Of a DNA stretch of 64,000 nucleotides, positions 1,099 through 47,937 are shown piece after piece. Position 1 is the stretch's first letter, and every line of letters starts with the position of its first letter. The DNA is from a virus. The position numbers and the translations under genes are program-made. Under the pieces are notes generated by a model, which did not search any database, was not told the DNA's origin, and saw only the letters and a list, made by a program, of their open reading frames with translations. The stretch lies in the IMG/VR virus record IMGVR_UViG_3300047476_000521, positions 64,001 through 128,000 of that record; one strand, 5' to 3'.

Positions 1099-4000
1099 CC
1101 TTATTTGTTGGTAATTCCACAGTAAACACTTCTATAAATGCAAATACTGCTAGTATTTTTGCTAATAGTACTGCGACTGCTTTATTTGTTGCCGCTAATG
1201 GAACTGTCGGAGTCGGAACGTCTTCTACTGGTTCGGCTAGATTAAATGTAAACGGCAAAGTATCTGCTTCGCAACTGGGAACAGAAAGCGGTAATCTTTT
1301 AATAGATACTGCAGGTAATGCGGGTACAATTACTCTTGGTTCAAGTTTCTTAGTAATACCTTCTAATGGTAATATTGGTATTGCAACTACCTCACCTCGT
1401 AACAAACTATCAATAGGAACTATTACTTCAACATCAACAGCAACTCCAGATGTAATTGATATAGGAGGCACATACAACAGCAGTGCTGGCAGCGCACCAA
1501 AACTTCGTGTGTGGACTGACGGCTCTAGTCATTATGGTATTGGTGTTTCTACTAATCAGATGGAATTTACTACGCAAGCAGGCGGAGCTCAAGTTTGGTA
1601 TACTGATGGTACCGAAAAAATGCGTTTGTCTTCTAATGGTAATGTGCGTATAGGTTCCGCTACAGCATCAGTAAGGTTTACTGTTGGAGATGGCGGGGAT
1701 AATCAATCAGGTCCAGGAACAGCGCAGATTGTTCTAAATGGTGCAGGAACAACTCCTTCAGTAACAGGTAAACCTACTTTATTCCATAAAGCAAATATTG
1801 GTTTAGGTTTACACTCAGATTCAGCAATGTCATTTACTGTTGCTGGTGCGGCTTACACTGAAGCAATGAGAATCGCTTCAAGTGGTAGTATTACTGGATA
1901 TGTCGATATTCGTTCTCCTATCTTTTATGACAGTAATAATACAAGTTTTTATGTTGATGCTGCATCCGCTTCTAGATTTAGTTCAATATATTCAGATCAA
2001 TATAGAATATTGAACAGCGGCGTTTTCATTTGGCAGCATGATAGCGCAGCAGCTAATAATAAGTTTTGGGATACATACTCAGGAAGCGATGGTACATTAA
2101 ACTTTAGAACAGTCAATGATACATATACAGCGGCGGTAAATTGGTTAACTGTAACACGCACTGGTAATTCTCCTCAAGTCATATCACTTGGCGGAACTTA
2201 TACGGCAGCGGCAGGTTCTGTAAGATCACCACTCTTCTACGATAGCGACAATACTGGTTACTATATTGACGGCGCAGGAACGTCCGTTTTGAATGCTGCT
2301 ACTTTTGCAGGTTTACATACAATTGATAGTCTTGGTATTATTGCTAGAACCGGTGGTGGTAACTATGGTGTTCGAATTTATCCCGGCGGTGGAACATCGG
2401 CTGTCAATGCCGTTCTACAATTCACAAATGCTGCACAAAATGTACAATGGGGAACACTCAACTTTGATGGTACCGCTGGCAGCGTAGGTACAGATACCGC
2501 TGTTCCTTTTTATATTAGGTCAAATGCGTCTAATAGAATCACCCTTCTTAGCGGCGGCAACGTTGGTGTAGGAACAATTTCACCCTCGACAAATTTTCAA
2601 GTTGTTGGTACTAGTTGGCTTGGTGGTTCAACAAATACCCAATCTACGATTGCAATTTATAGTCAAAACGCAACTTCTGCTAGTATAGAAGCGTTTGATC
2701 CAACAAATTCTGCCACAAAACGTGATATAGGTATTTCTGCTTTTGGTGGTAACGTTGGAATAGGAACTCAAAGCCCGACTCAAAAATTGACAGTTAGTGG
2801 TACAGGAAACGCTACTGGCGATTTCAGAGCGCCTATTTTCTATGACAGTGACAATACTGCTTACTATATGAATCCTAACGATTGGTCGAATTTTGGTGGT
2901 CTCTACGTTGATTGGGGCGTCATAACTTTCCAGTCCACCAAGCACAAGCGTATCACATCAAACGATGGTGGTGGTAACTGGAACTTCCGTGCAGGTAACT
3001 ACATGGATGGTTCGCTAAAGTATATCAACAACAGTGCAAATAGTGGTGCTGCTACTATCTCATTCTCTGTAGATAGCTCCGATGGATACATTAGTTTTCT
3101 CACTGCACCGATTGGTGTTGCTGGAGCAAACGTTTCGTATACCGGAACAGCATATCTAGATCGATATGGTACCTTTGGAACAAGTAACGATTTCAGAGCG
3201 CCTATCTTTTATGATAGTAATAATACTGCTTATTATTCTGATCCTAATGGTACATCAGTATTAACTAGAGTATCGCTATGGTCCGGAACAACTTCTGCAT
3301 TACATATCAACGACGTTGCAGGAGCAGCATCCTACAACAATATCATGTCAGCAGCAAACGATGGTGGCACTAAACTTGTTGCATTCGTTAACGGTTCTAC
3401 AAGAAATACTGATGGTGGTAATAATGCTGTTGTTATAAGAAACGATGGAGGACCATTTGTTCTTGGTTCTACTTCGCAGATAACAACTGTTGCAGGTTCG
3501 TATGTAGGTATTCCCACTGATCTTATCATATCTGGTGGTGTTGACGCCATTCAATTTAATAATGCTACAAGCAACTATATCACTTGGAATACTGCTGGCG
3601 TTGCTGCTCCAACTTTTACTACTCGTTCTGCTGGAACCAAGTTAGTATTATATCCATCTCTTGCCGCTTCTGCTGCTGATTATGCTATTGGTATTGAGAA
3701 TAACACTTTATGGAATTCTGTAATTAATACTGGAGCGCAGTTCAAATGGTATGGCGGAACTACGCTCGCCCTAACCCTTTCTGGTGCTGGTTTGTTGACT
3801 ATTGTTAATAGTCAAATAGCCAATCTAGGATCCACTTCGCTTAATAGTTTTGCAACAGCAGCAACAGCTACAGAAGGTCAGTTAATTGCTAATTTCACTG
3901 GTCAAAACTCTGCTTATCTATTCAATAACTCTACATTCTGGGGATTATATTCTGGTTCTGGCGGAGGCATTATTGCTTGGGATAGAGGTAATACTAGAGT

Positions 4001-39616: not shown

Positions 39617-40042
39617 ATGTCTATGCATATTTTACCCGCCTTCTATACGACTACGAACACTCGTAAACGTAAGAAGAAGCCAGCAGCCAAGACTAAGCTC
39701 GTGTCAGATCACGATCGTTGGCTGATGAAGAACGGAGTCCATCCGGATCAAATCCGTTCGAAAAAAGATAAAAAAGTACTTGACAAAATGTGGCGTTCGG
39801 GTTATAATGATTCTATGATGGTTGATCGATCTACTCGCCACTACGACGACAAAGAGTTGGTCGCTGGTGATTGTTCTAAGCGAGATATTATGACCAATCT
39901 TCATAAAGAACCAGAGCATGTGCAGGAGGAAATCCTCCGTAAAGCTTCTCTGGTTATGCCCCTCTATAACAAGGGCGGTTTACAGTATGCCGGTCCCAAC
40001 GTTGATTTGACGACTGTAGGGACTAAATCTCGAAGAGGATAA
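39617..40042 (+). CDS. Hypothetical protein (basic; C-terminal PLYNKGGLQY)
   Basis: SD GGGAGA; motif recurrent in T4-like phages. Confidence 0.7.
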   Translation: MSMHILPAFYTTTNTRKRKKKPAAKTKLVSDHDRWLMKNGVHPDQIRSKKDKKVLDKMWRSGYNDSMMVDRSTRHYDDKELVAGDCSKRDIMTNLHKEPEHVQEEILRKASLVMPLYNKGGLQYAGPNVDLTTVGTKSRRG

Positions 40043-40043
40043 T

Positions 40044-40241
40044 ATGGCTCAGATTAAGCTAAGTGATGCGTTTATGAATGTTTCTGACAGTGTTACTGTC
40101 AATCGATACGAGAATGGTTGGATGGTCGAGGTCTCTGGCAACGATCATAGCGACAGTTGGCAGAATAAAAAGTTTATCTTCTCTGACCTAAAAAATGTCT
40201 TGACTTTTCTCGAAGAATATAGTAAGATTACTCTAAGCTAA
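40044..40241 (+). CDS. Hypothetical protein
   Basis: SD AGGA; coupled ORF. Confidence 0.65.
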   Translation: MAQIKLSDAFMNVSDSVTVNRYENGWMVEVSGNDHSDSWQNKKFIFSDLKNVLTFLEEYSKITLS

Positions 40242-40258
40242 GAAAAGGGGTTACGGAT

Positions 40259-40432
40259 ATGGACATGATCGAAATTCAGCTTCAGGATCAGACGGGCAAC
40301 TGGCGTACGTATTCGTATACTCAAAATATTCCTCTCTTGTATCGGGATGGAATGCGCCAGCTGCAGTGGCAGTTTCCGGATGCTCGGATCCGTGCAGTTG
40401 ACTCTAATGGTCGTGTTGTAGATATCTTTTAA
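40259..40432 (+). CDS. Hypothetical protein (57 aa, not in ORF track)
   Basis: MDMIEIQLQDQTGNWRTYSYTQNIPLLYRDGMRQLQWQFPDARIRAVDSNGRVVDIF with SD AAGGGG. Confidence 0.65.
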   Translation: MDMIEIQLQDQTGNWRTYSYTQNIPLLYRDGMRQLQWQFPDARIRAVDSNGRVVDIF

Positions 40433-40445
40433 TGGAGAATATATA

Positions 40446-40709
40446 ATGGTTCAGAATGCTACTAAGGTTGATAAGGTGTTCGAGGCTCTTGTTGCTCGTG
40501 GCGAGCAGCTAACAGCTCAGCAGATTAAGGCTCGTTATGGTGTCGCTAATCCGCATGATGCTGTTTACCAGATTCGTCAGATGGGTTATGCTATCTATCT
40601 AAACGAGAGCAAGAATGCCAAGGGTGAGACTGTTGCTAAGTATCGTGCTGGTACTCCAAACCGCAAGCTAATTGCTGCTGGTTATCGAGCTCTGGCCGCT
40701 GGCCTTTAA
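40446..40709 (+). CDS. Winged-helix-like DNA-binding protein
   Basis: LTAQQIKARYGVANPHDAVYQIRQMGYAIYLN..KYRAG. Confidence 0.7.
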   Translation: MVQNATKVDKVFEALVARGEQLTAQQIKARYGVANPHDAVYQIRQMGYAIYLNESKNAKGETVAKYRAGTPNRKLIAAGYRALAAGL

Positions 40710-40715
40710 TACAAC

Positions 40716-40791
40716 GCTGCTGTAGCTCAGTTGGTAGAGCAACTGATTAGTAATCAGTGGGTCGGGAGTTCGATTCTCTCTAGCAGCACCA
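40716..40791 (+). tRNA. tRNA-Thr(AGT)
   Basis: Cloverleaf; ACTGA-TTAGTAA-TCAGT; encoded CCA. Confidence 0.92.
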
Positions 40792-41047
40792 GAATTCCAC
40801 GGCAGACTTTGAATCTGTTTGTGGATTTGCAGAGAGCAAATAGCCGATGTGCATTCGATATGTTTCCGTAGAATGCATCCCGTCAAGGGTTGATAGGAGA
40901 GGGAAACACTGACTGCGAATAAGTGTATATCGGCCATTCCGGGTGTACATTTAGTTTAACAGGAATGGTGTAGTCTCATGTTGTCCGTCGGCATGGGATA
41001 AGATTAAATTGGGTTGGAGATAATCCCCTGATAGGGCGGACCAATTT
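40792..41047 (+). ncRNA. Candidate structured ncRNA A
   Basis: Multiple stems incl. GCCGATGTGCAT/GTGTATATCGGC, CCATTCC/GGAATGG, TCTCATGTTG/CGGCATGGGA; no ORF. Confidence 0.6.
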
Positions 41048-41048
41048 C

Positions 41049-41123
41049 GCTGGTAGGTCGGCAGGATGTCGAAACGCTCTCATAAGGCGTCTAAGGTTGG
41101 TTTGATCCCAACTACCAGCACCA
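41049..41123 (+). tRNA. tRNA-Met-like (CAT), atypical D and T loops
   Basis: GCTGGTA/TACCAGC acceptor; ACGCT-CTCATAA-GGCGT; T loop TTTGATC; CCA. Confidence 0.8.
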
Positions 41124-41286
41124 ATGTTACTGCGTCAACGGATTAGACTACGGTTCGAAACGTTGACAGTAATGTGTTGTAAAGTTAGCAAAGGTGACCG
41201 GAGAGACCGTAAAAAGGTCTCGTATGGGATCCAGGTTCCGGTTGCAAAGTCCGGTCATTATGCTAATCCGTTGACGCAGTAACATT
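41123..41286 (+). ncRNA. Candidate structured ncRNA B bounded by perfect 24-bp inverted repeat
   Basis: AATGTTACTGCGTCAACGGATTAG (41123-41146) / CTAATCCGTTGACGCAGTAACATT (41263-41286). Confidence 0.65.
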
Positions 41287-41288
41287 AT

Positions 41289-41364
41289 GGACCGATAGCT
41301 CAGTTGGTAGAGCAGCCGACTCTTAATCGGCTTGTCGTGGGTTCGATCCCCTCTCGGTCTACCA
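41289..41364 (+). tRNA. tRNA-Lys(CTT)
   Basis: GCCGA-CTCTTAA-TCGGC; CCA. Confidence 0.93.
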
Positions 41365-41366
41365 TA

Positions 41367-41450
41367 TTGATACACAACAACGGGACGCCGACCTCAAGGA
41401 AGCGGGTATGGAGATAGCTACCAGATACGTGGAGAGGCGTTGTGTATCAA
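41367..41450 (+). ncRNA. Candidate structured ncRNA C
   Basis: 12-bp perfect terminal stem TTGATACACAAC/GTTGTGTATCAA around GC-rich core. Confidence 0.55.
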
Positions 41451-41459
41451 GTTTTATAT

Positions 41460-41535
41460 GGACCCATAGCTCAATAGGTAGAGTACTGGACTTTTAATCC
41501 ATGTGATCTCAGTTCAAATCTGAGTGGGTCTACCA
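41460..41535 (+). tRNA. tRNA-Lys(TTT)
   Basis: TGGA-CTTTTAA-TCCA; CCA. Confidence 0.92.
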
Positions 41536-41586
41536 AAATTTATAAATTTATAAATAAGCAAAAGGCGTCAGTTTATGAGGTATTAG

Positions 41587-41979
41587 ATGCATTGCTTAAA
41601 TTGTGGTAAAGAAATAAAAGTTGGAAAATATTGCAATAATAAATGTCAAGGCGAACTCAGAACCAAAAAACTATTACAAGAATGGTTTGATGGAAACGAT
41701 GAAGGTTATAAAGCAGGATTGAGGATTAAATCGCATATAAGAAACTATATGTTAGAGAAATCTAATTATAGTTGTTCAGAATGTGGTTGGGATAAAATCA
41801 ATCCAATTACAGGTAAAACGCCATTAGAAATCGATCATATAGATGGTGATTGTAAAAATTGTAAAGAAGATAACCTTAAAGTTCTTTGTCCAAACTGTCA
41901 TTCATTGACGCCTACTTGGAAAGCTTTGAATAAAGGCAAAGGAAACAAAGAAAGACATAAGTACTCTAAACTAATATAG
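41587..41979 (+). CDS. HNH homing endonuclease
   Basis: CSECG..LEIDHIDGD..N..NLKVLCPNCH; late promoter TATAAATA at 41549-41556. Confidence 0.9.
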   Translation: MHCLNCGKEIKVGKYCNNKCQGELRTKKLLQEWFDGNDEGYKAGLRIKSHIRNYMLEKSNYSCSECGWDKINPITGKTPLEIDHIDGDCKNCKEDNLKVLCPNCHSLTPTWKALNKGKGNKERHKYSKLI

Positions 41980-41988
41980 GTGAGTGTC

Positions 41989-42189
41989 ATGAAGCGCAAG
42001 TATACATTTATGGAAATGGTTGATCTTTCGTATTCTGAACATTATCGTGAGTATCTTCGCCATCTTTGGTGGCCTCATGGATATCGTCATAATAAAGAAG
42101 TTCAAGAAAAGATTCTAAACAACTTGGTTAGGGATCTTTTTGGATTTGATGAATACCTTGATCAGTATTTCTTGAGTCTTGCAGTATAA
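41989..42189 (+). CDS. Hypothetical protein
   Basis: SD AGGTGA before ATG 41989. Confidence 0.55.
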   Translation: MKRKYTFMEMVDLSYSEHYREYLRHLWWPHGYRHNKEVQEKILNNLVRDLFGFDEYLDQYFLSLAV

Positions 42190-42200
42190 ATAAAGTTTTT

Positions 42201-42276
42201 GGGGGATTAGCTCAGTTGGGAGAGCGTCTGATTTGCATTCAGAAGGCCATCGGTTCGATCCCGGTATCCTCCACCA
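42201..42276 (+). tRNA. tRNA-Ala(TGC)
   Basis: TCTGA-TTTGCAT-TCAGA; G3:U70; CCA; TATAAATA at 42185-42192. Confidence 0.93.
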
Positions 42277-42278
42277 AG

Positions 42279-42414
42279 TTTCGGGTGCATACGTAGCCAC
42301 ATACCTGTCAGCACGTAGCGACAGGAGCGCATTTGTGGTGCAAGTATATACGGCTAGCCACGGCGCTGCACAAATGTGGAGAAGAGACGAATGTGTGTCC
42401 TCGTCTGCCCGAAA
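42279..42414 (+). ncRNA. Candidate structured ncRNA D (multibranch)
   Basis: Closing TTTCGGGT/GCCCGAAA; CCTGTC/GACAGG; CGCATTTGTG/CACAAATGTG; AGACGA/TCGTCT. Confidence 0.6.
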
Positions 42415-42423
42415 ATTAACATT

Positions 42424-42499
42424 GGGGATGTAGCTCAATTGGGAGAGCGCAGCACTGTCACTGCTGAGGTAGCGAGATCGAAACTCGTCATTCCCGCCA
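42424..42499 (+). tRNA. tRNA-Asp(GTC)
   Basis: CAGCA-CTGTCAC-TGCTG; G73; CCA. Confidence 0.93.
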
Positions 42500-42508
42500 T
42501 TTTTGAAT

Positions 42509-42592
42509 ATGGGCGTCTATGGGGGTTCGACTCCCCAGCGGGCTTGCGACATAGATGAAAAAACAATGTTAGTTGCAACTGGCATTGCCCAT
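42509..42592 (+). ncRNA. Candidate structured ncRNA E with T-loop hairpin
   Basis: ATGGGC/GCCCAT closure; GGGG-TTCGACT-CCCC; CAATGTTAGT/ACTGGCATTG. Confidence 0.55.
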
Positions 42593-42599
42593 TTATTTT

Positions 42600-42703
42600 A
42601 TGGTCTATAGAAAGATACATTCAGACATTTCCAATGCCGCTACTAAGAGAGTTGGAAACTGTTAGTAGGTCAGCATTCTGAGTGTATCTTTCTATGGTCC
42701 CAT
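42600..42703 (+). ncRNA. Candidate structured ncRNA F, long stem plus possible pseudoknot
   Basis: 20-bp stem TATAGAAAGATACATTCAGA/TCTGAGTGTATCTTTCTATG; inner TTTCCAA/TTGGAAA crossing CTACTAA/TTAGTAG. Confidence 0.6.
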
Positions 42704-42704
42704 A

Positions 42705-43274
42705 TCAGACTCGTTCCCAACCGTATTTTTTATACGCAGGAACTTGATTTCTTTTTATTGTTTTAAATTTACCATTTTTAGTTATTTGAACTTGACTATA
42801 AGTAGGATTTGGGTTTTTGGTTCTTGTTTTAGCTGCAGCTAAACCGCCTTTTCTTCCTCTTTCTACTCTTTCTTCTTTGGAAATTTTGTTAAATGTTTGT
42901 CTGTCTCTATATTTTTTACATTGCCATAACAGTTTCATCGAATCAGATATAGATTTTCTTCTTCTATCCTCTGATACAGAGTCTTTTAAACATACTCTTG
43001 GTGATGATATTGCCTGGTTATAGAATTTAGGGTTAGAAACTGCTTTAACTCTTTGAAGAAACTTTGTTTCGTGGTTACGAGCTTCTTCGTATGTATTAAA
43101 TTTTCTTCTAATTTTAAATAAAAAGTTTTCAACACCTTCAGACTCAATAAGTCTTTGGATTATTTTTGATGAAGAAAAGTATTGAACGCCAATATCATTT
43201 ATAGAAGATTTTCTGACACCGTAATAAATAATACCAGTAGTGATATGGACTATAGTGTAAGTGTACGCTTTCAT
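42705..43274 (-). CDS. GIY-YIG (Seg-like) homing endonuclease, antisense to tRNA array
   Basis: AYTYTIVH..IYYGVR..YFSSSK..E..FYN; minus-strand TATAAATA at 43303-43310. Confidence 0.85.
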   Translation of the reverse strand: MKAYTYTIVHITTGIIYYGVRKSSINDIGVQYFSSSKIIQRLIESEGVENFLFKIRRKFNTYEEARNHETKFLQRVKAVSNPKFYNQAISSPRVCLKDSVSEDRRRKSISDSMKLLWQCKKYRDRQTFNKISKEERVERGRKGGLAAAKTRTKNPNPTYSQVQITKNGKFKTIKRNQVPAYKKYGWERV

Positions 43275-43324
43275 ATTTTGCCTCGTTTGTATCTGCTGCT
43301 ATTATTTATAAGTTTTATGATCTT

Positions 43325-43416
43325 GGGCGTGACGCTGGGTAGCGGGGAGGCTCTTATAAAGCCTTTAGCATCAGATGGGTGTTCTTCAGTGGGTTCGAGT
43401 CCCACCATGCCTACCA
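43325..43416 (+). tRNA. tRNA-Ile(TAT) with long variable arm and short D loop
   Basis: GGGCGTG/CATGCCT acceptor; AGGCT-CTTATAA-AGCCT; about 24-nt V region; GTGGG-TTCGAGT-CCCAC; A73 CCA. Confidence 0.8.
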
Positions 43417-43421
43417 ATTAT

Positions 43422-43512
43422 GGAGAGTTGGCCGAGTGGTCGAAGGCGGCTCACTGCTAACGAGTTGAACCCTAACACGGTTCCGAGAGTTCGAATCTCT
43501 CACTCTCCGCCA
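43422..43512 (+). tRNA. tRNA-Ser(GCT)
   Basis: CTGCTAA loop; long V arm; G73; CCA. Confidence 0.92.
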
Positions 43513-43513
43513 C

Positions 43514-43541
43514 TTGACTTTTTGACAGAAAACGGTATAAT
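43514..43541 (+). promoter_or_regulatory. Sigma70-like promoter inside tRNA array
   Basis: TTGACT-16-TATAAT; further copies at 43893-43920, 45457-45485, 45885-45912, 47448-47476. Confidence 0.7.
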
Positions 43542-43557
43542 GGTAATATGAGTTTAT

Positions 43558-43632
43558 GGCTCCTTCGTCTATCGGTTAGGACACAAGACTTTCAATCTTG
43601 GAAGAGGGGTTCGATTCCCCTAGGAGCTACCA
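43558..43632 (+). tRNA. tRNA-Glu(TTC)
   Basis: CAAGA-CTTTCAA-TCTTG; CCA. Confidence 0.92.
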
Positions 43633-43633
43633 A

Positions 43634-43858
43634 ATGAAATATCTACACGAAAAATATCCCTTTACTTTTGGTGTGATATTTTTTATAATATATTTCGCAT
43701 TGGACTTTATTGATGCTAGATTTTTCATACCAAGAAAGATCGCTGAAGCAAGACAATGTGAGTTAGATGATAAGTGTAGAACTTGGATAAATATACACAC
43801 GGAGGATGGCGTGCATGGTGCACACACAGTCTTGAAAACTGCGCCACCGAAAGGTTGA
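43634..43858 (+). CDS. Possible small membrane protein reading into tRNA-Ser(TGA)
   Basis: ATG 1 nt after tRNA-Glu CCA; hydrophobic FTFGVIFFIIYFAL; no SD; overlaps tRNA. Confidence 0.4.
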   Translation: MKYLHEKYPFTFGVIFFIIYFALDFIDARFFIPRKIAEARQCELDDKCRTWINIHTEDGVHGAHTVLKTAPPKG

Positions 43859-43884
43859 TGGTTCGATTCCTTCATCCTCCGCCA
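43801..43884 (+). tRNA. tRNA-Ser(TGA)
   Basis: CAGT-CTTGAAA-ACTG; V arm; G73; CCA. Confidence 0.9.
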
Positions 43885-43929
43885 CTTTTTTATTGACATC
43901 TTGACTAAATAAAGTATACTAGAGTTTAT

Positions 43930-44005
43930 TGCGGGTGGGAGGTATTAGTATCTTGTCGGTTTCATACGCCGATAGAAGTGGGGGCAGTTCCCACACCCGC
44001 TTCCA
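43930..44005 (+). tRNA. tRNA-(f)Met-like (CAT), atypical
   Basis: 1:72 mismatch; TCGGT-TTCATAC-GCCGA; T loop GGCAGTT; CCA. Confidence 0.75.
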
Positions 44006-44009
44006 GTAT

Positions 44010-44182
44010 AGATACATATTCCTCAAACTGGATCCGCTATGCCGAAAGGTGCGAGGACAATGTGTGTCTTATGTGCCGTGCTTGGCCCGTCACGGGATAT
44101 AAATCTACGGGGTGCATGTCGATAGATGCGAGCAGTCCATTGCTTGTATTGTGCTATCTGACCGCTAACGGGCCTCCAGTTT
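44010..44182 (+). ncRNA. Candidate structured ncRNA G
   Basis: AGATACATATT/AATGTGTGTCT; AAACTGGA/TCCAGTTT; GGCCCGT/ACGGGCC; GATGCGAGCAGT/ATTGCTTGTATT. Confidence 0.55.
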
Positions 44183-44184
44183 AT

Positions 44185-44258
44185 ATCGGTGAAGTGTTAC
44201 GGTAGCACATCTGTCTCCAAAACAGAGGGCGAGGGTTCGACTCCTTCCGCCGGTGCCA
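44185..44258 (+). tRNA. tRNA-Trp(CCA)
   Basis: TCTGT-CTCCAAA-ACAGA; CCA. Confidence 0.92.
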
Positions 44259-44265
44259 GTTTTAT

Positions 44266-44342
44266 CGGGGTGTAGCTCAGTCTGGTAGAGTGCTTGCTTT
44301 GGGAGCAAGATGTCGTAGGTTCGAATCCTGCTACCCCGACCA
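44266..44342 (+). tRNA. tRNA-Pro(TGG)
   Basis: CTTGC-TTTGGGA-GCAAG; CCA. Confidence 0.95.
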
Positions 44343-44344
44343 TT

Positions 44345-44525
44345 TGATGTTGAATTGTTTCAATGGAAAGGTCTGTTGAAACACAGTTGGAGTCGAGATT
44401 TCAACCGCCAGGGCAGGCGTTCCAACAGCCCGACTGTTATGTGCCTTCCAGAGACCGTCTGCGTAGCGGGCGGAACCTTGCACACTAGGTTTTCTGTTTC
44501 CTGGGGAAGAAAAACAGACAGAATT
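44345..44525 (+). ncRNA. Candidate structured ncRNA H
   Basis: ACAGTTGG/CCGACTGT, CCGTCTGC/GCGGGCGG, AACCT/AGGTT, TCTGTTT/AAACAGA; GC-rich non-coding spacer. Confidence 0.5.
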
Positions 44526-44527
44526 AT

Positions 44528-44603
44528 GGACGATTAGCTCAGTTGGGAGAGCAACGCTTTTACACAGCGAAGGTCGGCAGTTCGAACCTGTCATCGTCTA
44601 CCA
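44528..44603 (+). tRNA. tRNA-Val(TAC)
   Basis: CGCT-TTTACAC-AGCG; CCA. Confidence 0.93.
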
Positions 44604-44712
44604 ATTCCAGTGAATCGCTGTGGACGCACAGAGGGGTTGCTGGCAGGGATACGCAGTAGTAGTATAAATGACCAGGGGGTAAACCTGCTACTAAACGATC
44701 CCGTAAGTTTAT

Positions 44713-44789
44713 GCCTCTGTAGTCCAACTGGAAGAGATGCCTGACTTAGAATCAGGAGGTTGTAAGTTCGAATCTTACCAGGGGCACCA
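44713..44789 (+). tRNA. tRNA-Leu(TAG), short variable loop
   Basis: CCTGA-CTTAGAA-TCAGG; 5-nt V loop; A73; CCA. Confidence 0.9.
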
Positions 44790-44799
44790 TTATAAATAT

Positions 44800-44875
44800 G
44801 CTTGTTTGGTGTAGCTGCTGCGCACGTCCGTCTGAAGAACGGAAGGATCTAGTTGAATTCTAGGAACAAGCACCA
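44800..44875 (+). tRNA. tRNA-Phe(GAA), atypical D/T loops
   Basis: TCCGT-CTGAAGA-ACGGA; T loop TTGAATT; D loop lacks GG; CCA. Confidence 0.82.
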
Positions 44876-44897
44876 TCCTACGAAAAGGAAATATATC

Positions 44898-45110
44898 ATG
44901 AACAACGAAAAAACGTTGTTTAGATTGAGAGCGGGTATTGTAGGAAAAGATAAGACTGTATCGGTATACTGCGATATGCCTGTGAAACCGAGAGACAACT
45001 GGATCAATCTTGATCCCGGCGTTTATACATATGAGAGTTTGTTGTGTGAACGCATGTTGATTATTGTAAAGAATAAGAGTTTCCACGCTTCTTCTATGCC
45101 TAATGGGTAG
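44898..45110 (+). CDS. Hypothetical protein inside tRNA array
   Basis: SD AAGGA before ATG 44898; 70 aa. Confidence 0.6.
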   Translation: MNNEKTLFRLRAGIVGKDKTVSVYCDMPVKPRDNWINLDPGVYTYESLLCERMLIIVKNKSFHASSMPNG

Positions 45111-45133
45111 ATAGCGCACCAGGAAACTTACTT

Positions 45134-45210
45134 GCCCTCGTAGCCCAACCGGCAGAGGCAGTTGACTCAAAATCAACCAAGTGTCAGTTCGAATCTGACC
45201 GAGGGCACCA
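45134..45210 (+). tRNA. tRNA-Leu(CAA), short variable loop
   Basis: GTTGA-CTCAAAA-TCAAC; 5-nt V loop; CCA. Confidence 0.9.
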
Positions 45211-45211
45211 T

Positions 45212-45288
45212 GTCTCTGTAGCTCAACTGAATAGAGCATCGGTCTTCGAAACCGAGGGTTGTGGGTTTGAATCCTACCAGGGACTCCA
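45212..45288 (+). tRNA. tRNA-Arg(TCG)
   Basis: TCGGT-CTTCGAA-ACCGA; T loop TTTGAAT; CCA. Confidence 0.88.
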
Positions 45289-45294
45289 GTTTAT

Positions 45295-45372
45295 GTTGCG
45301 GTGTGTCCGGAACGGTTACGGCAAGGTCTGCAAAACCTCTTCATGTGGGTTCGAATCCCATCCGCAACTCCA
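45295..45372 (+). tRNA. tRNA-Cys(GCA)
   Basis: AGGT-CTGCAAA-ACCT; U73; CCA. Confidence 0.88.
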
Positions 45373-45376
45373 ATTT

Positions 45377-45450
45377 GCTGGGGTAGTGTAGTGGTAGCAC
45401 CTGAGGTTGTGGACCTCAGAGTCCAGGATCGATACCTGGTCCCAGTACCA
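45377..45450 (+). tRNA. tRNA-His(GTG), no G-1, A73
   Basis: TGAGG-TTGTGGA-CCTCA; base before G1 is T; discriminator A. Confidence 0.9.
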
Positions 45451-45505
45451 AATTGGTTGACTTTTATGTCAATCTAGGGTAATATATGTGAACAGTAAGA
45501 ATTAA

Positions 45506-45581
45506 TGTCCCTTAGCTCAGTTGGTAGAGCGCAGTCCTGATAAGACTGAGGTCGCTGGGTCGGAGCCAGCAGGGACAACCA
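45506..45581 (+). tRNA. tRNA-Ile(GAT)
   Basis: CAGTC-CTGATAA-GACTG; T loop GTCGGAG; CCA. Confidence 0.9.
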
Positions 45582-45584
45582 GTT

Positions 45585-45700
45585 ATCCCGTTTTCTAGAT
45601 ACACGGGAGAGACCTAACGAGAATAACAGCAGGGAAAGCTCGTGAATATCGGATTGTTGACTGCTTTAGCTAAAGGGCTAAACCGATAAGGTGTATGGAA
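45585..45700 (+). ncRNA. Candidate structured ncRNA I
   Basis: TCCCGT/ACGGGA, ACGAG/CTCGT, TATCGG/CCGATA, TTTAGCT/GGCTAAA, ATACAC/GTGTAT. Confidence 0.5.
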
Positions 45701-45703
45701 TAT

Positions 45704-45795
45704 GCGTGGACGGCAACGACGGTGGTGTTGCGACGGACTGTAAATCCGTTCCCTTTGTGGTAACATTGGTGGTTCGAATCCATCTCCACGCACCA
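45704..45795 (+). tRNA. tRNA-Tyr(GTA)
   Basis: ACGGA-CTGTAAA-TCCGT; long V region; CCA. Confidence 0.9.
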
Positions 45796-45801
45796 GTTTA
45801 T

Positions 45802-45875
45802 TCGGGGATAGTTTAATGGTAGAACGTCAGACTTTGAATCTGATTGTCGGGGTTCGAGTCCCTGTCCCCGATCCA
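45802..45875 (+). tRNA. tRNA-Gln(TTG)
   Basis: TCAGA-CTTTGAA-TCTGA; U1:A72; CCA. Confidence 0.93.
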
Positions 45876-45921
45876 AAAAAGAACTTGACTTTGTGACTAA
45901 ATAAGTTACAATATGTTATAT

Positions 45922-45997
45922 TCCCGTGTAACTCAGTTGGTAGAGTAGGTGACTGTTAATCACTTTGTCGGAGGTTCGAGTCCTTCCTCGGGAGCCA
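45922..45997 (+). tRNA. tRNA-Asn(GTT)
   Basis: GGTGA-CTGTTAA-TCACT; G73; CCA. Confidence 0.93.
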
Positions 45998-46065
45998 GTT
46001 TAGGTTGGTCGCTATAAATAGACTCGTGAGGGCCCACGGTTAGTCCTCTCTTTTGGAGAGAGAAA

Positions 46066-46353
46066 ATGAAAAAGATTATCTTATCGTTATCATTGTTTCT
46101 TGGTTTGAGTATGCAACCAGCAAACGCCCAGTATTGGGGAGGTTATGGCTACGGTTATGGTTATAATGCTGCTGCTGGTTTAGCTATTGGTGCTCTGGCT
46201 GGAGCAGCTATCGCTAGTGCTGCCAATCCATATTGGAATTATGGTAGACCAGGATATGGGTATTATCCTCCGTATGGTGGTTATTATGCTGTCCCTGTTG
46301 CTCCTCCTGCGTATTATTATCGCCCAGGACGTGCATACTACTACGGTTACTGA
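46066..46353 (+). CDS. Secreted Gly/Tyr/Pro-rich protein (BA14K-like architecture)
   Basis: Signal peptide ending ANA; AAAGLAIGALAGAAIAS segment; TATAAATA at 46013-46020. Confidence 0.7.
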   Translation: MKKIILSLSLFLGLSMQPANAQYWGGYGYGYGYNAAAGLAIGALAGAAIASAANPYWNYGRPGYGYYPPYGGYYAVPVAPPAYYYRPGRAYYYGY

Positions 46354-46354
46354 T

Positions 46355-46765
46355 ATGAAAAACATTGTTATTGCTCTCATGTTGGTATCAACTCCAGCTG
46401 CAGCCAGTAATTATAACATTGATGTTTGTAATAACTGTAATATCAATGTTCAAAAGAAAGTTATTAAAAAGGTTGTAAAGACTGTTCCTGTTGCAATTGA
46501 GTATGTTCCTGCTGGTCCTGGACCAATCAGTTCTACCATTGCAGTTCCAGTAGCAGTTCCTGTTCAACCTGTACCGTTGGTTCCTGTATATAACTCTGTA
46601 CCAACACCAGAAGCATCGAATATCTATTCGCCTCCAGGATATCCTACTAACGTTCCTGTGGCAACTTCTGGTAACTGTGCCATGTATATTGATCCTTATG
46701 ATTTATTTGGTCAACTTTTTGGTGGAGCAGATTTAGTTCAGAGTTGTTTAGTTCCAGCGTATTAA
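46355..46765 (+). CDS. Secreted Pro/Val-rich hypothetical protein
   Basis: MKNIVIALMLVSTPAAA signal peptide; ATG right after upstream stop. Confidence 0.65.
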   Translation: MKNIVIALMLVSTPAAASNYNIDVCNNCNINVQKKVIKKVVKTVPVAIEYVPAGPGPISSTIAVPVAVPVQPVPLVPVYNSVPTPEASNIYSPPGYPTNVPVATSGNCAMYIDPYDLFGQLFGGADLVQSCLVPAY

Positions 46766-46766
46766 T

Positions 46767-46842
46767 GCCGGTATAGCTCAGACGGTAGAGCAACTCACTT
46801 GTAATGAGAAGGTCGTGGGTTCGACTCCTGCTGCCGGCACCA
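46767..46842 (+). tRNA. tRNA-Thr(TGT)
   Basis: CTCA-CTTGTAA-TGAG; CCA. Confidence 0.94.
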
Positions 46843-46843
46843 T

Positions 46844-46918
46844 TGGGGATTAGTTTAACTGGCAGAACGTCTGACTCTGACTCAGGTAGTTGAGGTTCGA
46901 ATCCTTGATCCCCATCCA
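46844..46918 (+). tRNA. tRNA-Gln(CTG)
   Basis: TCTGA-CTCTGAC-TCAGG; CCA. Confidence 0.92.
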
Positions 46919-46926
46919 AAAGTTAA

Positions 46927-47000
46927 GCGGTAGAAGTGTTACGGTAGCACGATAGGCTTCCACCCTGTAAGCGTGGGTTCGACTCCCACTTACCGCTCCA
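46927..47000 (+). tRNA. tRNA-Gly(TCC)
   Basis: ATAGG-CTTCCAC-CCTGT; U73; CCA. Confidence 0.92.
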
Positions 47001-47039
47001 GTTTTGATTTAATTCATCATGATAAAACGGAGATAGATA

Positions 47040-47444
47040 ATGGGCAAGTGTTATACGAATGTAGTGGCAGAACCTTTCACTAACGAAATCGGTCAGACTA
47101 TTAATCCTGGAGATGAGGTAGTAGTTGTTACTACTGGTTATTCTCATAGAGTTAATGTTTATACTGCTAAGTTTCTAGGAGTTCGTCGTAATAAAGAAAC
47201 CTATGAATTCGTTGGTACTTCCGTAGGAGATGTTCCTTCTACTAGGACTCGCATTGTTTATTCGTCTGATGGCGAATACGAAGAAATCAAGTATGGAGAC
47301 TATGATTGGACGACACAAAAAGGCTCACAAATTAAAACTGGCCGAAGATATTCTTTTGTTCGAGAAGATGTTATGACTAGGCGAGCTCTATATTGTAATC
47401 GAATTTTTAAGATCGGTACTCAGCTTGCTGATGTTAGAATTTAA
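47040..47444 (+). CDS. Hypothetical protein
   Basis: SD GGAG; NEIGQTINPGDEVVV SH3-like start. Confidence 0.65.
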   Translation: MGKCYTNVVAEPFTNEIGQTINPGDEVVVVTTGYSHRVNVYTAKFLGVRRNKETYEFVGTSVGDVPSTRTRIVYSSDGEYEEIKYGDYDWTTQKGSQIKTGRRYSFVREDVMTRRALYCNRIFKIGTQLADVRI

Positions 47445-47487
47445 TTCTTGACTTTATCGCAATTAAGCGATATAATTACTGATAATT

Positions 47488-47509
47488 GGAGGGATCTTCC
47501 CTCCTTTTT
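47488..47509 (+). terminator. Rho-independent terminator ending tRNA region
   Basis: GGAGGGA-TCT-TCCCTCC then TTTTT. Confidence 0.75.
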
Positions 47510-47523
47510 CATTGGGTAGATCG

Positions 47524-47937
47524 ATGACTCGCGACGATAAGTATATGGCCTTTACTCGTCGAATGGCTATTTCCAATAAAATGAAAATGAAACTCGCTGC
47601 TTGCCTCGTTATCCAAAACGAGGTAATCAGCATAGGATATAACTCTGATAAGTCTCATCCCCTGCAAAAAAGATTCTCCAAGAATTCAGAATCAATCTTT
47701 AAGCACGCAGAGATTGATTGTATCGTCAATGCGCTCAAACACATTGACGCTGAAGATATGAAGCGTGCGACTCTCTATGTTTATAGAGTAAAAAAGAAAC
47801 AGAAAGGAGATAGTGGGTGGGTTGATGGAAGAGCAGAACCTTGTTCAGGATGTAAGAAAGCTATCGAACATTTTGGAATTAAGATGGTTGTGTATTCCAC
47901 AGACGATCCTGGGATGTATGGGATTGACTACGCCTAA
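47524..47937 (+). CDS. Cytidine/deoxycytidylate deaminase-fold Zn enzyme
   Basis: HAE and PCxxC (HAEIDCI, EPCSGC) motifs. Confidence 0.88.
   Translation: MTRDDKYMAFTRRMAISNKMKMKLAACLVIQNEVISIGYNSDKSHPLQKRFSKNSESIFKHAEIDCIVNALKHIDAEDMKRATLYVYRVKKKQKGDSGWVDGRAEPCSGCKKAIEHFGIKMVVYSTDDPGMYGIDYA

What the first reader, a model, noticed from the sequence alone, without database searches (positions are those of the whole stretch)
40792..45700. tRNA array interleaved with about nine mutually unrelated structured non-coding RNAs
Seen: many inter-tRNA spacers are a few nt, but about nine are 80-255 nt, GC-richer than the genome, lack convincing ORFs, and fold into multi-stem structures with G-U pairs on the + strand; several have ends that pair right next to the flanking tRNAs. 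Established: T4 co-transcribes RNA C and D of unknown function in its tRNA cluster. Inference: tRNA processing releases a battery of stable small RNAs (decoys of defence proteins, antitoxin mimics, ribozymes).
Basis: partly seen in the sequence, partly recalled or inferred. Interest (0 to 1): 0.8.

Follow-up and report, generated by a model that had tools for sequence, protein, structure and literature searches.

The report
Folded small RNAs between phage tRNAs
An uncultured T4-like lake phage packs its 27-tRNA cluster with about eight unrelated, self-folding non-coding RNAs (plus two probable tiny protein genes), a larger and swappable version of the unexplained "stable RNAs" long known from the tRNA regions of phages T4 and T5.

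Summary
The observation largely holds. On the + strand, 27 tRNA genes lie at 40716-47000.

- **Conserved RNA structure, shown by compensatory changes in relatives (6 modules):** S2 41124-41288 is very strong; S3, S5, S10, S12 and a hairpin at 45077-45129 have fewer homologues.
- **tRNA mimic:** 44084-44178 is a CCA-ended RNA with an acceptor-like stem. It has 8 sequence variants, all found inside phage tRNA arrays.
- **Thermodynamic support only:** 40792-40940 and 44006-44083.
- **No support:** 40954-41048 and 44343-44527.
- **Probably small protein genes:** two gaps (43633-43800 and the 5' part of 44876-45133).

None of these matches Rfam 15, T4 RNAC/RNAD or the T5 stable RNAs. The design, however, is that of phage T5's tRNA region: stable RNAs with paired ends, some ending in CCA, set among tRNAs, homing-endonuclease genes, small ORFs and several promoters.

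Relatives carry the same tRNA pairs with 1-10 nt linkers or with other inserts, and modules recur in other phage clades. So these are exchangeable cassettes.

Processing, stability and any decoy function are inferred, not shown. The scan had already noted similar RNA cassettes in tRNA arrays on other DNA. My verdict is new members of a known but unexplained kind.

The parts
40716..47000 (+). Array of 27 tRNA genes, most with encoded CCA, in a 136-kb T4-like uncultured virus record
   Evidence: ARAGORN. Rfam tRNA hits. PHROG hits to T4-type portal, major head, sheath and terminase proteins.
40792..40940 (+). S1a: three-hairpin RNA. The first hairpin tip (about 40803-40822) copies the anticodon arm of the phage's own tRNA-Gln(UUG).
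   Evidence: z -3.86, 0 of 200 shuffles as good. 19 of 20 nt match tRNA-Gln at 45828-45847. No homologue among 223 unique spacers except the near-identical strain L116. One RNA-library contig lies on 40700-41038.
40954..41048 (+). S1b: 3' part of spacer 1, with no support for a structure
   Evidence: z -1.13, 27 of 200 shuffles as good. A DNA contig of another study keeps this part while the first 162 nt of S1 are absent or replaced. No homologue found.
41124..41288 (+). S2: 165-nt RNA closed by a 23-24 bp helix, with an invariant CGGUUCGAAACG hairpin. The best-supported module.
   Evidence: z -8.54. 24-nt perfect inverted repeat. Across 11 distinct family sequences, 11 of 23 helix pairs show changes on both sides and 99.3% of cells are paired; 0 of 500 shuffles reach the observed percentage paired, double-change counts or covariation score (further pair types: 111 of 500). 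A U-G pair is conserved in 9 of 11. The ORF is not conserved.
41365..41459 (+). S3: 95-nt RNA with an 11-12 bp closing helix and inner hairpins
   Evidence: z -3.73. With 3 sequences, 8 of 22 predicted pairs change on both sides and stay paired. The near-identical strain L116 has a different 111-nt CCA-ended insert at this position.
41587..41979 (+). HNH-like homing-endonuclease ORF (130 aa), absent from strain L116
   Evidence: Weak Pfam HNH hits below the cut-off. Alignment with L116.
42277..42423 (+). S5: 147-nt RNA with an 8-bp closing helix, upstream of tRNA-Asp
   Evidence: Homologue at 86% identity in relatives (8 loci, 13 loci). Of 40 predicted pairs, 3 change on both sides, 2 on one side and 0 break. 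Single-nucleotide indels rule out a reading frame. z is only -1.68.
42500..42704 (+). S6a: a tRNA-fragment-like part (42500-42603, with a GGGGGTTCGACTCCCC hairpin) and a 21-bp hairpin (42604-42700), next to the endonuclease gene
   Evidence: z -6.36 for the whole, -1.65 and -7.24 for the two parts. Inverted repeat I2. The first part has one homologue, in L076.
42705..43274 (-). GIY-YIG (SegE-like) homing-endonuclease ORF, 189 aa
   Evidence: Pfam SegE_GIY-YIG at 19.3 bits, below the cut-off. A DNA contig of another study joins 42502 to 43411 without this segment.
43514..43541 (+). Promoter-like site in a 45-nt gap. Similar sites lie at 43893-43920, 45457-45485 and 45885-45912.
   Evidence: Matches of 11, 11, 9 and 10 of 12 positions. 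The total number of sites in the region is not above shuffles (18 against 15.3).
43634..43858 (+). S7: probable small membrane-protein gene (74 aa) that runs into tRNA-Ser(UGA)
   Evidence: ORF. GC 0.30. GGAG 7 nt before the ATG, read. No Pfam hit and no homologue.
44006..44083 (+). S8a: 78-nt hairpin
   Evidence: z -2.04, 6 of 200 shuffles as good. No homologue.
44084..44178 (+). S8b: 95-nt tRNA mimic with a 7-bp GGCCCGT/ACGGGCC stem, U, CCA and a GTTTAT trailer, but no cloverleaf
   Evidence: Stem scan. No Rfam match at E up to 10. Eight sequence variants in 19 virus contigs plus the window. 16 of the 18 loci checked for neighbours have same-strand tRNAs beside it. z -2.62.
44343..44527 (+). 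S9: 185-nt insert between tRNA-Pro and tRNA-Val, unsupported
   Evidence: z -1.46, 18 of 200 shuffles as good. No homologue.
44604..44712 (+). S10: two-domain RNA between tRNA-Val and tRNA-Leu
   Evidence: z -2.56. With 3 sequences, 4 of 17 predicted pairs change on both sides and stay paired.
44898..45110 (+). S11, 5' part: probable 70-aa gene behind AAAGGA
   Evidence: ORF. L188 has 94% identical DNA over 154 nt, and 5 of its 9 differences are at third codon positions. The only protein match is one near-identical cluster.
45077..45129 (+). S11, 3' hairpin module. In relatives it makes up most of the 70-71 nt Val-Leu spacer.
   Evidence: z -2.88. Alignment with L013, L021, L055 and L014 shows two compensatory pairs.
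45582..45703 (+). S12: 122-nt RNA upstream of tRNA-Tyr, shared with another phage clade
   Evidence: Homologues in L159, L164 and L185, also upstream of tRNA-Tyr. Of 29 predicted pairs, 3 change on both sides, 4 on one side and 1 breaks. z is only -0.52.

Best explanation
The inserts are a set of separate, self-folding RNA genes embedded in the phage's tRNA transcription units. They are the same kind of thing as the stable RNAs of phage T5 (RNAI, III, IV, 1, 2, 2H, 3) and T4 (RNAC, RNAD), but they belong to new sequence families.

**How it most likely works**
- Several sigma-70-type promoters drive polycistronic transcripts (inferred from consensus matches).
- RNase P cuts at the 5' end of each tRNA and of the CCA-ended mimic S8b. 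The A/U-rich linkers (TTTAT-like) are cut by RNase E-type enzymes. The 23-bp helix of S2 is long enough for RNase III. All of this is inferred.
- Each module has its two ends paired in a closing helix, so the released RNA resists exonucleases and accumulates (inferred).

**What is shown**
- Structure is conserved through compensatory change in six modules.
- The CCA-ended mimic forms a conserved family.
- The modules are accessory cassettes. Relatives have the same tRNA pairs joined by 1-10 nt or by other inserts. A near-identical strain carries a different cassette at the S3 position. S2, S8b, S11 and S12 recur in other phage clades, next to other tRNAs for S2 and S8b.

**Exchange.** It probably runs through recombination in the conserved tRNA genes, helped by the resident HNH and GIY-YIG homing endonucleases.

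**Function.** The trans-acting function of each RNA is unknown. My leading guess (about 1 in 5) is interference with host tRNA-directed or RNA-processing factors.
For: - **Array and gaps:**
- **S2:** 11 of 23 closing-helix pairs change on both sides across 11 distinct sequences, with 99.3% of cells paired. 0 of 500 shuffles reach the observed percentage paired, double-change counts or covariation score (further pair types: 111 of 500). Slid controls give 28-52% paired and at most 2 such pairs.
- **S3:** 8 of 22 pairs change on both sides.
- **S10:** 4 of 17.
- **S12:** 3 of 29.
- **S5:** 3 of 40, with 0 broken.
- **S11 hairpin:** 2 compensatory pairs.
- **Check not fitted to the homologues:** I used the window-only minimum-energy fold of S3, S5, S10 and S12. 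23 of 39 changed cells stay paired, against 93 of 285 in slid controls (Fisher p 0.0014). Double changes are 11 of 39 against 18 of 285 (p 0.00014).
- **Strand:** G-U pairs and lower energies point to the + strand.
- **S8b family:** it sits inside tRNA arrays of another clade.
- **Presence/absence and cassette replacement:**, and contigs of other studies.
- **T5 and T4 precedents:** both have paired termini and CCA ends.
- **SegB:** it cuts inside tRNA genes and drives inheritance of the T4 tRNA region (passages of PMC2330249).
Against: - There is no direct evidence of transcripts, ends or stability. The one exact RNA-library contig (40700-41038) may be carried-over DNA.
- S1b and S9 have neither homologues nor better-than-shuffle folding. 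S5 and S12 fold no better than shuffles.
- Covariation for S5, S10 and S12 rests on one or two homologues. In the unfitted check, 16 of 39 changed cells were broken.
- Relatives with 1-10 nt linkers show that the inserts are dispensable.
- Promoter-like sites are not more numerous than in shuffles.
- The window modules show no sequence similarity to the T4 or T5 RNAs.
Confidence: 0.6

Rival explanations
1. The inserts are passive structured spacers. They have no trans function. Their helices are kept only so that the spacer folds on itself, does not disturb folding of the neighbouring tRNAs, and offers entry sites for RNase III or RNase E during precursor processing.
For: - Closing helices lie directly beside the tRNAs.
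- A/U-rich linkers flank every insert.
- The S2 helix has the length of an RNase III substrate.
- In relatives, S2 often sits straight after a promoter-like stretch or at the head of an array.
Against: - Relatives process the same tRNA pairs with 1-10 nt linkers, so no spacer is needed.
- Unpaired stretches are invariant within families: the hairpin loop and GACAGUAAU of S2, and the motifs of S8b.
- The same module is kept across phage clades next to different tRNAs.
- S8b carries its own acceptor-like stem and CCA.
Confidence: 0.2
2. The inserts are debris: decayed tRNA genes and scars of recombination and homing-endonuclease traffic in a fast-changing array, evolving neutrally.
For: - S1 holds a 20-nt copy of the tRNA-Gln anticodon arm.
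- S6a holds a T-arm-like hairpin.
- S8b and the 111-nt insert of strain L116 are tRNA-derived.
- Several array tRNAs are themselves aberrant: the two tRNA-Met give no Rfam tRNA match at all, and the Cys, Ser(UGA) and Ile(UAU) tRNAs score below the tRNA cut-off.
- S1b and S9 are orphans with no structural signal.
Against: - Compensatory changes in six modules show selection on RNA structure.
- No spacer matches the tRNA model at E up to 10.
- The S8b end motifs are conserved in 8 variants.
Confidence: 0.1
3. The inserts are small protein-coding genes that were overlooked because they are short.
For: - S7 and the 5' part of S11 have ORFs of 74 and 70 codons with ribosome-binding sites.
- Spacers of 122-127 nt between tRNA-Gln and tRNA-Gly in relatives start with AAGGA...ATG.
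- T5 has many small ORFs between its tRNAs.
Against: - For S2 the frame is broken in 10 of 10 homologues.
- S3, S5, S10 and S12 differ from their homologues by indels of 1, 2 or 7 nt.
- Even the S11 ORF has no protein relatives beyond one near-identical cluster.
Confidence: 0.05
4. The inserts are DNA-level mobile elements (MITE-like) whose terminal inverted repeats are sites for a transposase or nuclease.
For: - Perfect 24-nt and 12-nt terminal inverted repeats in S2 and S3.
- Patchy distribution, and the same element next to different tRNAs.
Against: - There is one copy per genome and no copy outside tRNA arrays.
- No target-site duplication is visible at the junctions.
- G-U pairs conserved in the helix would be A-C mismatches on the other strand and in a DNA cruciform.
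- Inner hairpins also covary.
Confidence: 0.05

Closest known systems
Phage T5 stable RNAs of the tRNA region (RNAI, RNAIII, RNAIV, RNA1, RNA2, RNA2H, RNA3, RNAX; annotation of NC_005859)
   Same: The architecture is the same: 73-172 nt RNAs (one of 719 nt) on the tRNA strand, set among 25 tRNAs, HNH endonuclease genes, small ORFs and many promoters. The 7 short ones (RNAX was not folded) fold with their 5' and 3' ends paired. RNAI and RNA3 end in CCA, and RNA1 and RNA2 carry a T-arm. Their function is annotated as unknown.
   Different: No sequence similarity to any window module or related locus (nhmmer at E up to 0.1, 0 hits for the 7 short RNAs tested; RNAX was not tested). T5 is a siphovirus of Escherichia coli, whereas this is a T4-like uncultured freshwater phage. 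The T5 RNAs were seen as stable molecules (annotation; the older literature is recalled, not read); here nothing has been seen at the RNA level.
Phage T4 RNAC and RNAD (species 1 and 2 RNAs)
   Same: They are small RNAs next to tRNA-Arg, in a tRNA region that also holds the GIY-YIG endonuclease gene segB. RNAC has a T-arm and a closing helix, and RNAD ends in CACCA. Their roles are unknown (passages of PMC3014915 and PMC12685909).
   Different: T4 has two RNAs, against about eight here. There is no sequence similarity (nhmmer at E up to 1, 0 hits). Apart from S8b, the window modules have no tRNA features.
YrlA / bacterial and phage Y RNAs (Rfam RF02553)
   Same: They have a long helix formed by the two ends, carry a tRNA-like module, and are often found near phage tRNA arrays (recalled).
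   Different: The only RF02553 matches lie on true tRNAs, at 26.3 and 21.2 bits against a cut-off of 69, and not on any spacer. I did not look for a Ro/Rsr gene.
GOLLD and ROOL large ornate RNAs (phage-borne, often beside tRNAs; PMC12286853, search listing only)
   Same: They are phage-associated structured RNAs of unknown function next to tRNA genes.
   Different: They are several hundred nucleotides long (recalled) and single. There is no Rfam match in the window.
Canonical tRNA (RF00005)
   Same: S8b has a 7-bp acceptor-like stem, a discriminator base, an encoded CCA and the same trailer as the neighbouring tRNAs.
   Different: It has no cloverleaf and no T-arm before the 3' acceptor strand. 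There is no RF00005 match at E up to 10.

Membership tests
Stable RNAs of phage tRNA regions (T5 RNAI-IV/1/2/2H/3, T4 RNAC/RNAD) | Lies inside or next to a phage tRNA gene cluster, on the tRNA strand | tested here: met
   All modules lie between + strand tRNAs. G-U pairs and energies favour the + strand.
Stable RNAs of phage tRNA regions (T5 RNAI-IV/1/2/2H/3, T4 RNAC/RNAD) | Non-coding, with a compact fold whose 5' and 3' ends pair | tested here: met
   Met for S2, S3, S5 and S8b. S10 and S12 are multi-hairpin RNAs without a single closing helix. Not met for S7 and the 5' part of S11, which have ORFs.
Stable RNAs of phage tRNA regions (T5 RNAI-IV/1/2/2H/3, T4 RNAC/RNAD) | Co-transcribed with tRNAs and accumulating as a discrete stable species | not testable with these tools
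   The only evidence is one RNA-library contig with 0 differences over 40700-41038. Contigs show neither ends nor level, and DNA carry-over is possible.
Stable RNAs of phage tRNA regions (T5 RNAI-IV/1/2/2H/3, T4 RNAC/RNAD) | Sequence homology to a T4 or T5 RNA | tested here: not met
   nhmmer of rnaC, rnaD and 7 T5 RNAs against the window and all held loci gave 0 hits.
tRNA (Rfam RF00005) | Cloverleaf scored by the covariance model | tested here: not met
   No RF00005 or tRNA-Sec match lies in any spacer at E up to 10. ARAGORN calls in spacers appear only at a lowered threshold.
Self-cleaving ribozymes and other Rfam 15 families | Match to any of the 4227 covariance models | tested here: not met
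   Nothing lies in the spacers at the gathering score or at E up to 10. Minimal HDV-like 'theta' ribozymes may not be in Rfam, so they are not excluded (recalled).
Type III antitoxin RNAs (ToxI-like) | Tandem direct repeats of a roughly 36-nt unit | tested here: not met
   Tandem Repeats Finder lists only three short arrays (periods 6, 8 and 10) at 41536-41555, 45900-45918 and 46141-46164.
YrlA / Y RNA (RF02553) | Covariance-model match; a Ro-binding helix plus a tRNA-like domain | tested here: not met
   The sub-threshold matches lie on tRNA-Trp/Pro and tRNA-Leu/Arg only.

The most novel reading that the evidence does not exclude
Phage tRNA arrays act as exchange platforms for RNA gene cassettes. 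Discrete self-folding RNAs are swapped between unrelated phage lineages by homing-endonuclease-driven recombination at tRNA genes. They include CCA-ended tRNA mimics (the S8b family, with an invariant UCCA at the tip of its long arm) and a displayed tRNA-Gln anticodon arm (S1a). They serve as decoys or inhibitors of host tRNA-cleaving defence nucleases or RNA-processing enzymes. The patchy, strain-level turnover would then be the trace of an arms race fought with RNAs rather than proteins.
Probability: 0.15. Interest if true: 0.85.

Novelty: new member of a known kind. Interest (0 to 1): 0.5.

Why it matters
The small stable RNAs of the T4 and T5 tRNA regions have long had no known function. 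Passages of PMC3014915 (2010) and PMC12685909 (2025) still call the T4 ones unexplained.

This window shows that such RNAs are not oddities of two laboratory phages.
- A single uncultured phage carries about eight of them.
- They fall into families that can be followed across phage clades.
- At least one family (S2, 11 variants) already has statistically strong covariation.
- Another (S8b, 8 variants) is a compact tRNA mimic with an encoded CCA end.

The families give concrete, short sequences whose processing, binding partners and effect on tRNA-directed defences can be tested in laboratory strains. The presence/absence pattern among near-identical strains suggests that they are accessory, host-interaction genes.

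Tried and rejected
**Known RNA families.** Rfam 15 was searched at the gathering score on the whole window and at E up to 10 on 40000-47600, 40792-41459 and 44006-44184. Nothing lies in any spacer. The Plastid-ycf2, Plastid-psbl-rps4, tRNA-Sec, YrlA and mascRNA rows all lie on true tRNAs.

**Cultured phages.** Megablast and blastn against 50,697 phage records matched tRNA genes only.

**Bistable fold of S2.** The alternative helix is paired in 74.5% of cells against 74.7% in shuffles, and has one pair with a double change. Covariation does not support it, but it is not excluded.

**Pseudoknot at 42629-42668.** Two 7-bp helices cross. The 3-nt connecting loop looks too short to span a 7-bp stem (my reading of the sequence), so I treat them as alternatives.

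**Anticodon-arm mimics as a general theme.** I found 11 anticodon-like hairpins in the 11 spacers, against 6.2 +/- 2.5 in shuffles, and 20 of 300 shuffles reach 11. This is not significant. Only the S1 hairpin is convincing.

**Searches that found nothing useful**
- The 134-aa protein downstream of the array has no relatives in the virus contigs.
- A 23-nt pattern from S1b gave 0 hits.
- The S8b inner motif in 185,579 prokaryote genomes gave 2 chance hits without the acceptor stem.
- A local-alignment sweep of S1a, S1b, S8a, S9, S6a2 and S7 against 223 unique spacers gave no score above shuffled queries, except the near-identical strain L116.

**RNA-library run X24.** Parts of the stretch without cover say nothing. 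Apart from the contig on 40700-41038, its listed pieces lie on tRNAs (one runs from 46642 into tRNA-Thr), carry 7-10 differences, and probably come from other organisms.

**Rows dropped**
- From the S2 pattern scan (29 stretches) I left out L199, L204, L207 and L210, which have the motif but no closing helix, and L196, which is cut by the locus end.
- From the S8b pattern scan (29 stretches) I left out 11 GC-rich chance matches: L158, L160, L161, L162, L166, L172, L173, L175, L176, L178 and L180.

**Supplements.** Paper supplements were closed. None was needed for a claim here.

Full report
**What the window is.** The window is bases 64001-128000 of a 136,102-base virus record, estimated 82% complete. 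Its large ORFs match T4-type portal, major head, tail sheath, terminase and gp46-like proteins. It is therefore a T4-like myovirus known only from metagenomes. The public runs that hold most of the stretch are freshwater metagenomes. Neither megablast nor blastn against 50,697 deposited phage genomes matches anything in the array except tRNA genes.

**The observation.** ARAGORN finds 27 tRNA genes on the + strand at 40716-47000, and most encode their CCA. Between tRNA-Thr(AGT) and tRNA-Tyr there are 21 gaps:
- 10 gaps of 95-258 nt, which I call S1, S2, S3, S5, S7, S8, S9, S10, S11 and S12.
- 2 gaps of 665 and 825 nt with an HNH-like ORF and a GIY-YIG-like ORF.
- 3 gaps of 45-55 nt that match the sigma-70 consensus in 9 to 11 of 12 positions.
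- 6 gaps of 1-10 nt.

Eight of the ten mid-sized gaps are GC-richer than the genome: 0.469 pooled, against 0.389. The ten fall into ten different clusters among 127 unique spacers of this phage group. None has a second copy in the genome. So 'about nine mutually unrelated inserts' is a fair description.

Two points of the description fail.
- S7 is AT-rich (GC 0.30). It holds a 74-codon ORF with a hydrophobic stretch and a GGAG 7 nt before its ATG.
- The 5' part of S11 holds a 70-codon ORF behind AAAGGA. This is the kind of ribosome-binding site that also heads the small-ORF spacers of relatives.

**Folding against chance.** With 200 dinucleotide-preserving shuffles per sequence:

| Module | z-score | Shuffles folding as well (of 200) |
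|---|---|---|
| S2 | -8.54 | 0 |
| S6a 3' hairpin | -7.24 | 0 |
| S1a (40792-40940) | -3.86 | 0 |
| S3 | -3.73 | 0 |
| S11 3' hairpin | -2.88 | 1 |
| S8b | -2.62 | 1 |
| S10 | -2.56 | 2 |
| S8a | -2.04 | 6 |
| S5 | -1.68 | 11 |
| S9 | -1.46 | 18 |
| S1b | -1.13 | 27 |
| S12 | -0.52 | 56 |

Sixty-six random coding segments of the same lengths from this window give a mean z of -0.64 (sd 1.01). The 11 spacers taken together are lower (Mann-Whitney p 1.3e-5). As a set the inserts are more structured than chance, but four stretches are not distinguishable on their own.

**Relatives.** I collected related loci in several ways.
- The 87-aa protein just upstream of the array gave 78 loci in the virus contigs and 41 in the metagenome contigs.
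- A protein inside the array gave 32 more, 29 of them new.
- Pattern scans gave further arrays from other phage clades.

Their tRNA maps show the central fact. The same pair of tRNAs is joined by a few bases such as TTTAT in some phages and by 70-500 nt of mutually unrelated sequence in others. For example, tRNA-Pro and tRNA-Val are 4-5 nt apart in three phages and 91, 100, 101, 129, 131, 185 or 883 nt apart in others. The inserts are therefore dispensable for tRNA production and come and go as units.

Two metagenome contigs (L116, L117) are identical to the window through S1, tRNA-Met, S2 and tRNA-Lys(CUU). Exactly at the end of that tRNA, L116 (L117 ends with that tRNA) switches to a different 111-nt insert in place of S3 and a diverged tRNA-Lys(UUU), and it has no HNH gene.

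Contigs from other studies tell the same story. One joins tRNA-Asp directly to tRNA-Ser, without S6, the GIY-YIG gene or tRNA-Ile. Another joins tRNA-Leu to tRNA-His, without two tRNAs.

**Conserved structure.**

*S2.* S2 belongs to a family with 11 distinct sequences. I dropped L199, L204, L207, L210 and L196, for the reasons given under Tried and rejected. In the 23-bp closing helix:
- 11 pairs change on both sides and stay paired.
- 99.3% of 286 cells are standard pairs.
- 0 of 500 shuffles reach the observed percentage paired, double-change counts or covariation score. For the count of further pair types, 111 of 500 do.
- Slid controls give 28-52% paired and at most 2 such pairs.
- A U-G pair is kept in 9 of 11 sequences. 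On the other strand it would be a mismatch.

The hairpin CGGUUCGAAACG and the following GAC.AGUAAU are nearly invariant, while the interior exists in at least two unrelated versions. The 52-codon ORF that spans S2 is interrupted in 10 of 10 homologues; 5 of them also start with TTA or ATA, which are not usual start codons.

*S3.* Three sequences, one found only by comparing syntenic spacers. 8 of 22 predicted pairs change on both sides.

*S10.* Three sequences, with 4 of 17 pairs changing on both sides.

*S12.* It is shared with a different phage clade, where it also precedes tRNA-Tyr. 3 of 29 pairs change on both sides, 4 on one side, and 1 is broken.

*S5.* 3 of 40 pairs change on both sides and none is broken.

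*S11 hairpin.* The last 53 nt of S11 form a hairpin. In relatives this hairpin makes up most of the 70-71 nt Val-Leu spacer, and it shows two compensatory pairs.

*Control for fitting.* RNAalifold fits its structure to the alignment, so I repeated the count with the fold predicted from the window sequence alone. In S3, S5, S10 and S12 together, 23 of 39 changed cells stay paired (11 by double change). In slid controls, 93 of 285 stay paired (18 by double change). Fisher p is 0.0014 and 0.00014. The 16 broken cells lie largely where the homologue has a different hairpin. The support for these four modules is real but moderate.

**The tRNA mimic.** I confirmed a 7-bp stem GGCCCGT/ACGGGCC followed by U, CCA and the same GTTTAT trailer that follows true tRNAs here. 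There is no tRNA-model match at E up to 10.

- A scan for that stem with a 65-90 nt interior found 29 stretches. Of these, 18 are clear relatives and 11 are GC-rich chance matches.
- A scan with an inner motif found 14 stretches. One was new, and it has the same stem.
- The family has 8 variants. They share CGG(K)AUAUAAAUC..GGGGU after the 5' strand, GCUA before the 3' strand, and an invariant UCCA at the tip of a long arm. Seven variants have U and one has A as the discriminator base.
- In 16 of the 18 loci checked, same-strand tRNAs of a different array order flank it, and it follows a tRNA-Met or tRNA-Gly.
- It is absent from the close relatives of the window and from 185,579 prokaryote genomes at that motif.

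So one conserved RNA gene sits in the arrays of two phage lineages.

**Comparison with what is known.** The T4 record annotates rnaC and rnaD beside tRNA-Arg and the GIY-YIG gene segB. RNAC has a T-arm and a closing helix, and RNAD ends in CACCA. Their roles are unknown according to passages of a 2010 review (PMC3014915). A 2025 paper (PMC12685909) reports a convergent mutation in rnaD when a T4-like phage adapts to a semi-permissive host.

The T5 record is closer still. It annotates eight 'stable RNAs with unknown functions', three of them called tRNA-like. They lie among 25 tRNAs, four HNH endonuclease genes within that region, many small ORFs and a dozen or more promoters. The seven short T5 RNAs all fold with paired ends, and two end in CCA.

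Neither the T4 nor the T5 RNAs resemble the window modules in sequence. The window is thus a new and richer instance of a known design, made of new families.

SegB of T4 cuts inside tRNA genes and imposes the T4 tRNA region on a co-infecting phage (passages of PMC2330249). This gives a ready mechanism for the cassette exchange seen here, where two such endonuclease genes sit in the array.

**Mechanism and confidence.**

Shown:
- The inserts exist.
- Most are non-coding.
- Six keep their helices in evolution.
- One is a conserved CCA-ended mimic.
- All are accessory and exchangeable.

Inferred:
- They are co-transcribed with the tRNAs.
- They are released by RNase P, RNase E and, for S2, RNase III.
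- They are stable because their ends are paired.

The only RNA-level datum is one 404-nt contig of a metatranscriptome library that matches 40700-41038 exactly. It cannot prove transcription. What the RNAs do is open. A role against host tRNA-directed or RNA-processing factors is my leading guess, at about 1 in 5. It rests on the tRNA-like ends, the tRNA-Gln anticodon arm displayed in S1a, the accessory distribution and the T4-like rnaD result. A general excess of anticodon-like hairpins was not found.

**Verdict.** These are new members of a known but unexplained kind. The scan has noted comparable RNA cassettes in tRNA arrays on other DNA before. I treat that as a lead, not as support.

Noticed in passing
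41049-41123 and 43930-44005: ARAGORN calls two tRNA-Met(CAU) genes here, but the Rfam tRNA model gives no match even at E up to 10. Their T-loops read TTTGATC and GGCAGTT instead of TTCGAAT. tRNA-Cys, tRNA-Ser(UGA) and tRNA-Ile(UAU) also score below the tRNA cut-off.
   Followed up: partly
L116:about 3540-3650, and L022, L024, L025, L048, L055, L092 (spacers Leu-Phe and Phe-Leu): A second family of CCA-ended tRNA-like RNAs (105-112 nt in five of its seven members) has an 8-bp acceptor stem, a D-arm, a T-arm and two extra arms. The tip of the long arm carries a self-complementary stretch that changes between members (UCCGGA, ACUAGU, CCGG), which would suit loop-loop dimerisation. In strain L116 it replaces S3.
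   Followed up: partly
42604-42700: A 21-bp hairpin with two G-U pairs on the + strand lies directly beside the stop of the minus-strand GIY-YIG gene. Its tip can form two crossing 7-bp helices (TTTCCAA/TTGGAAA and CTACTAA/TTAGTAG). z -7.24, and no homologue was found.
   Followed up: partly
41587-41979, compared with L116: The HNH-like gene is present in the window but absent from an otherwise identical strain. The divergent tract starts exactly at the 3' end of tRNA-Lys(CUU) and includes S3 and tRNA-Lys(UUU), as expected for homing with co-conversion.
   Followed up: partly
G000:C1:916-989, outside the window: ARAGORN calls a tRNA with anticodon CUA (listed as tRNA-Pyl). This is an amber-suppressor-type tRNA far from the main array.
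   Followed up: no
46066-46353 and 46346-46765: Two ORFs sit inside the array, between tRNA-Asn and tRNA-Thr. Their N-termini look like signal peptides (my reading). The first is rich in Gly and Tyr (GYGYGY). The second is conserved in relatives at 72-90% identity.
   Followed up: no
40716-40791 and 43325-43416: There is a tRNA-Thr with anticodon AGU, and a 92-nt tRNA-Ile(UAU) with a long extra arm. A zinc deaminase gene lies at 47512-47937.
   Followed up: no
L016, L022, L024, L025 (spacers Gln-Gly, 122-312 nt): These spacers start with AAGGA..ATG and look like tiny protein genes. Inter-tRNA inserts in this phage group are therefore a mix of RNA genes and small ORFs, as in T5.
   Followed up: no
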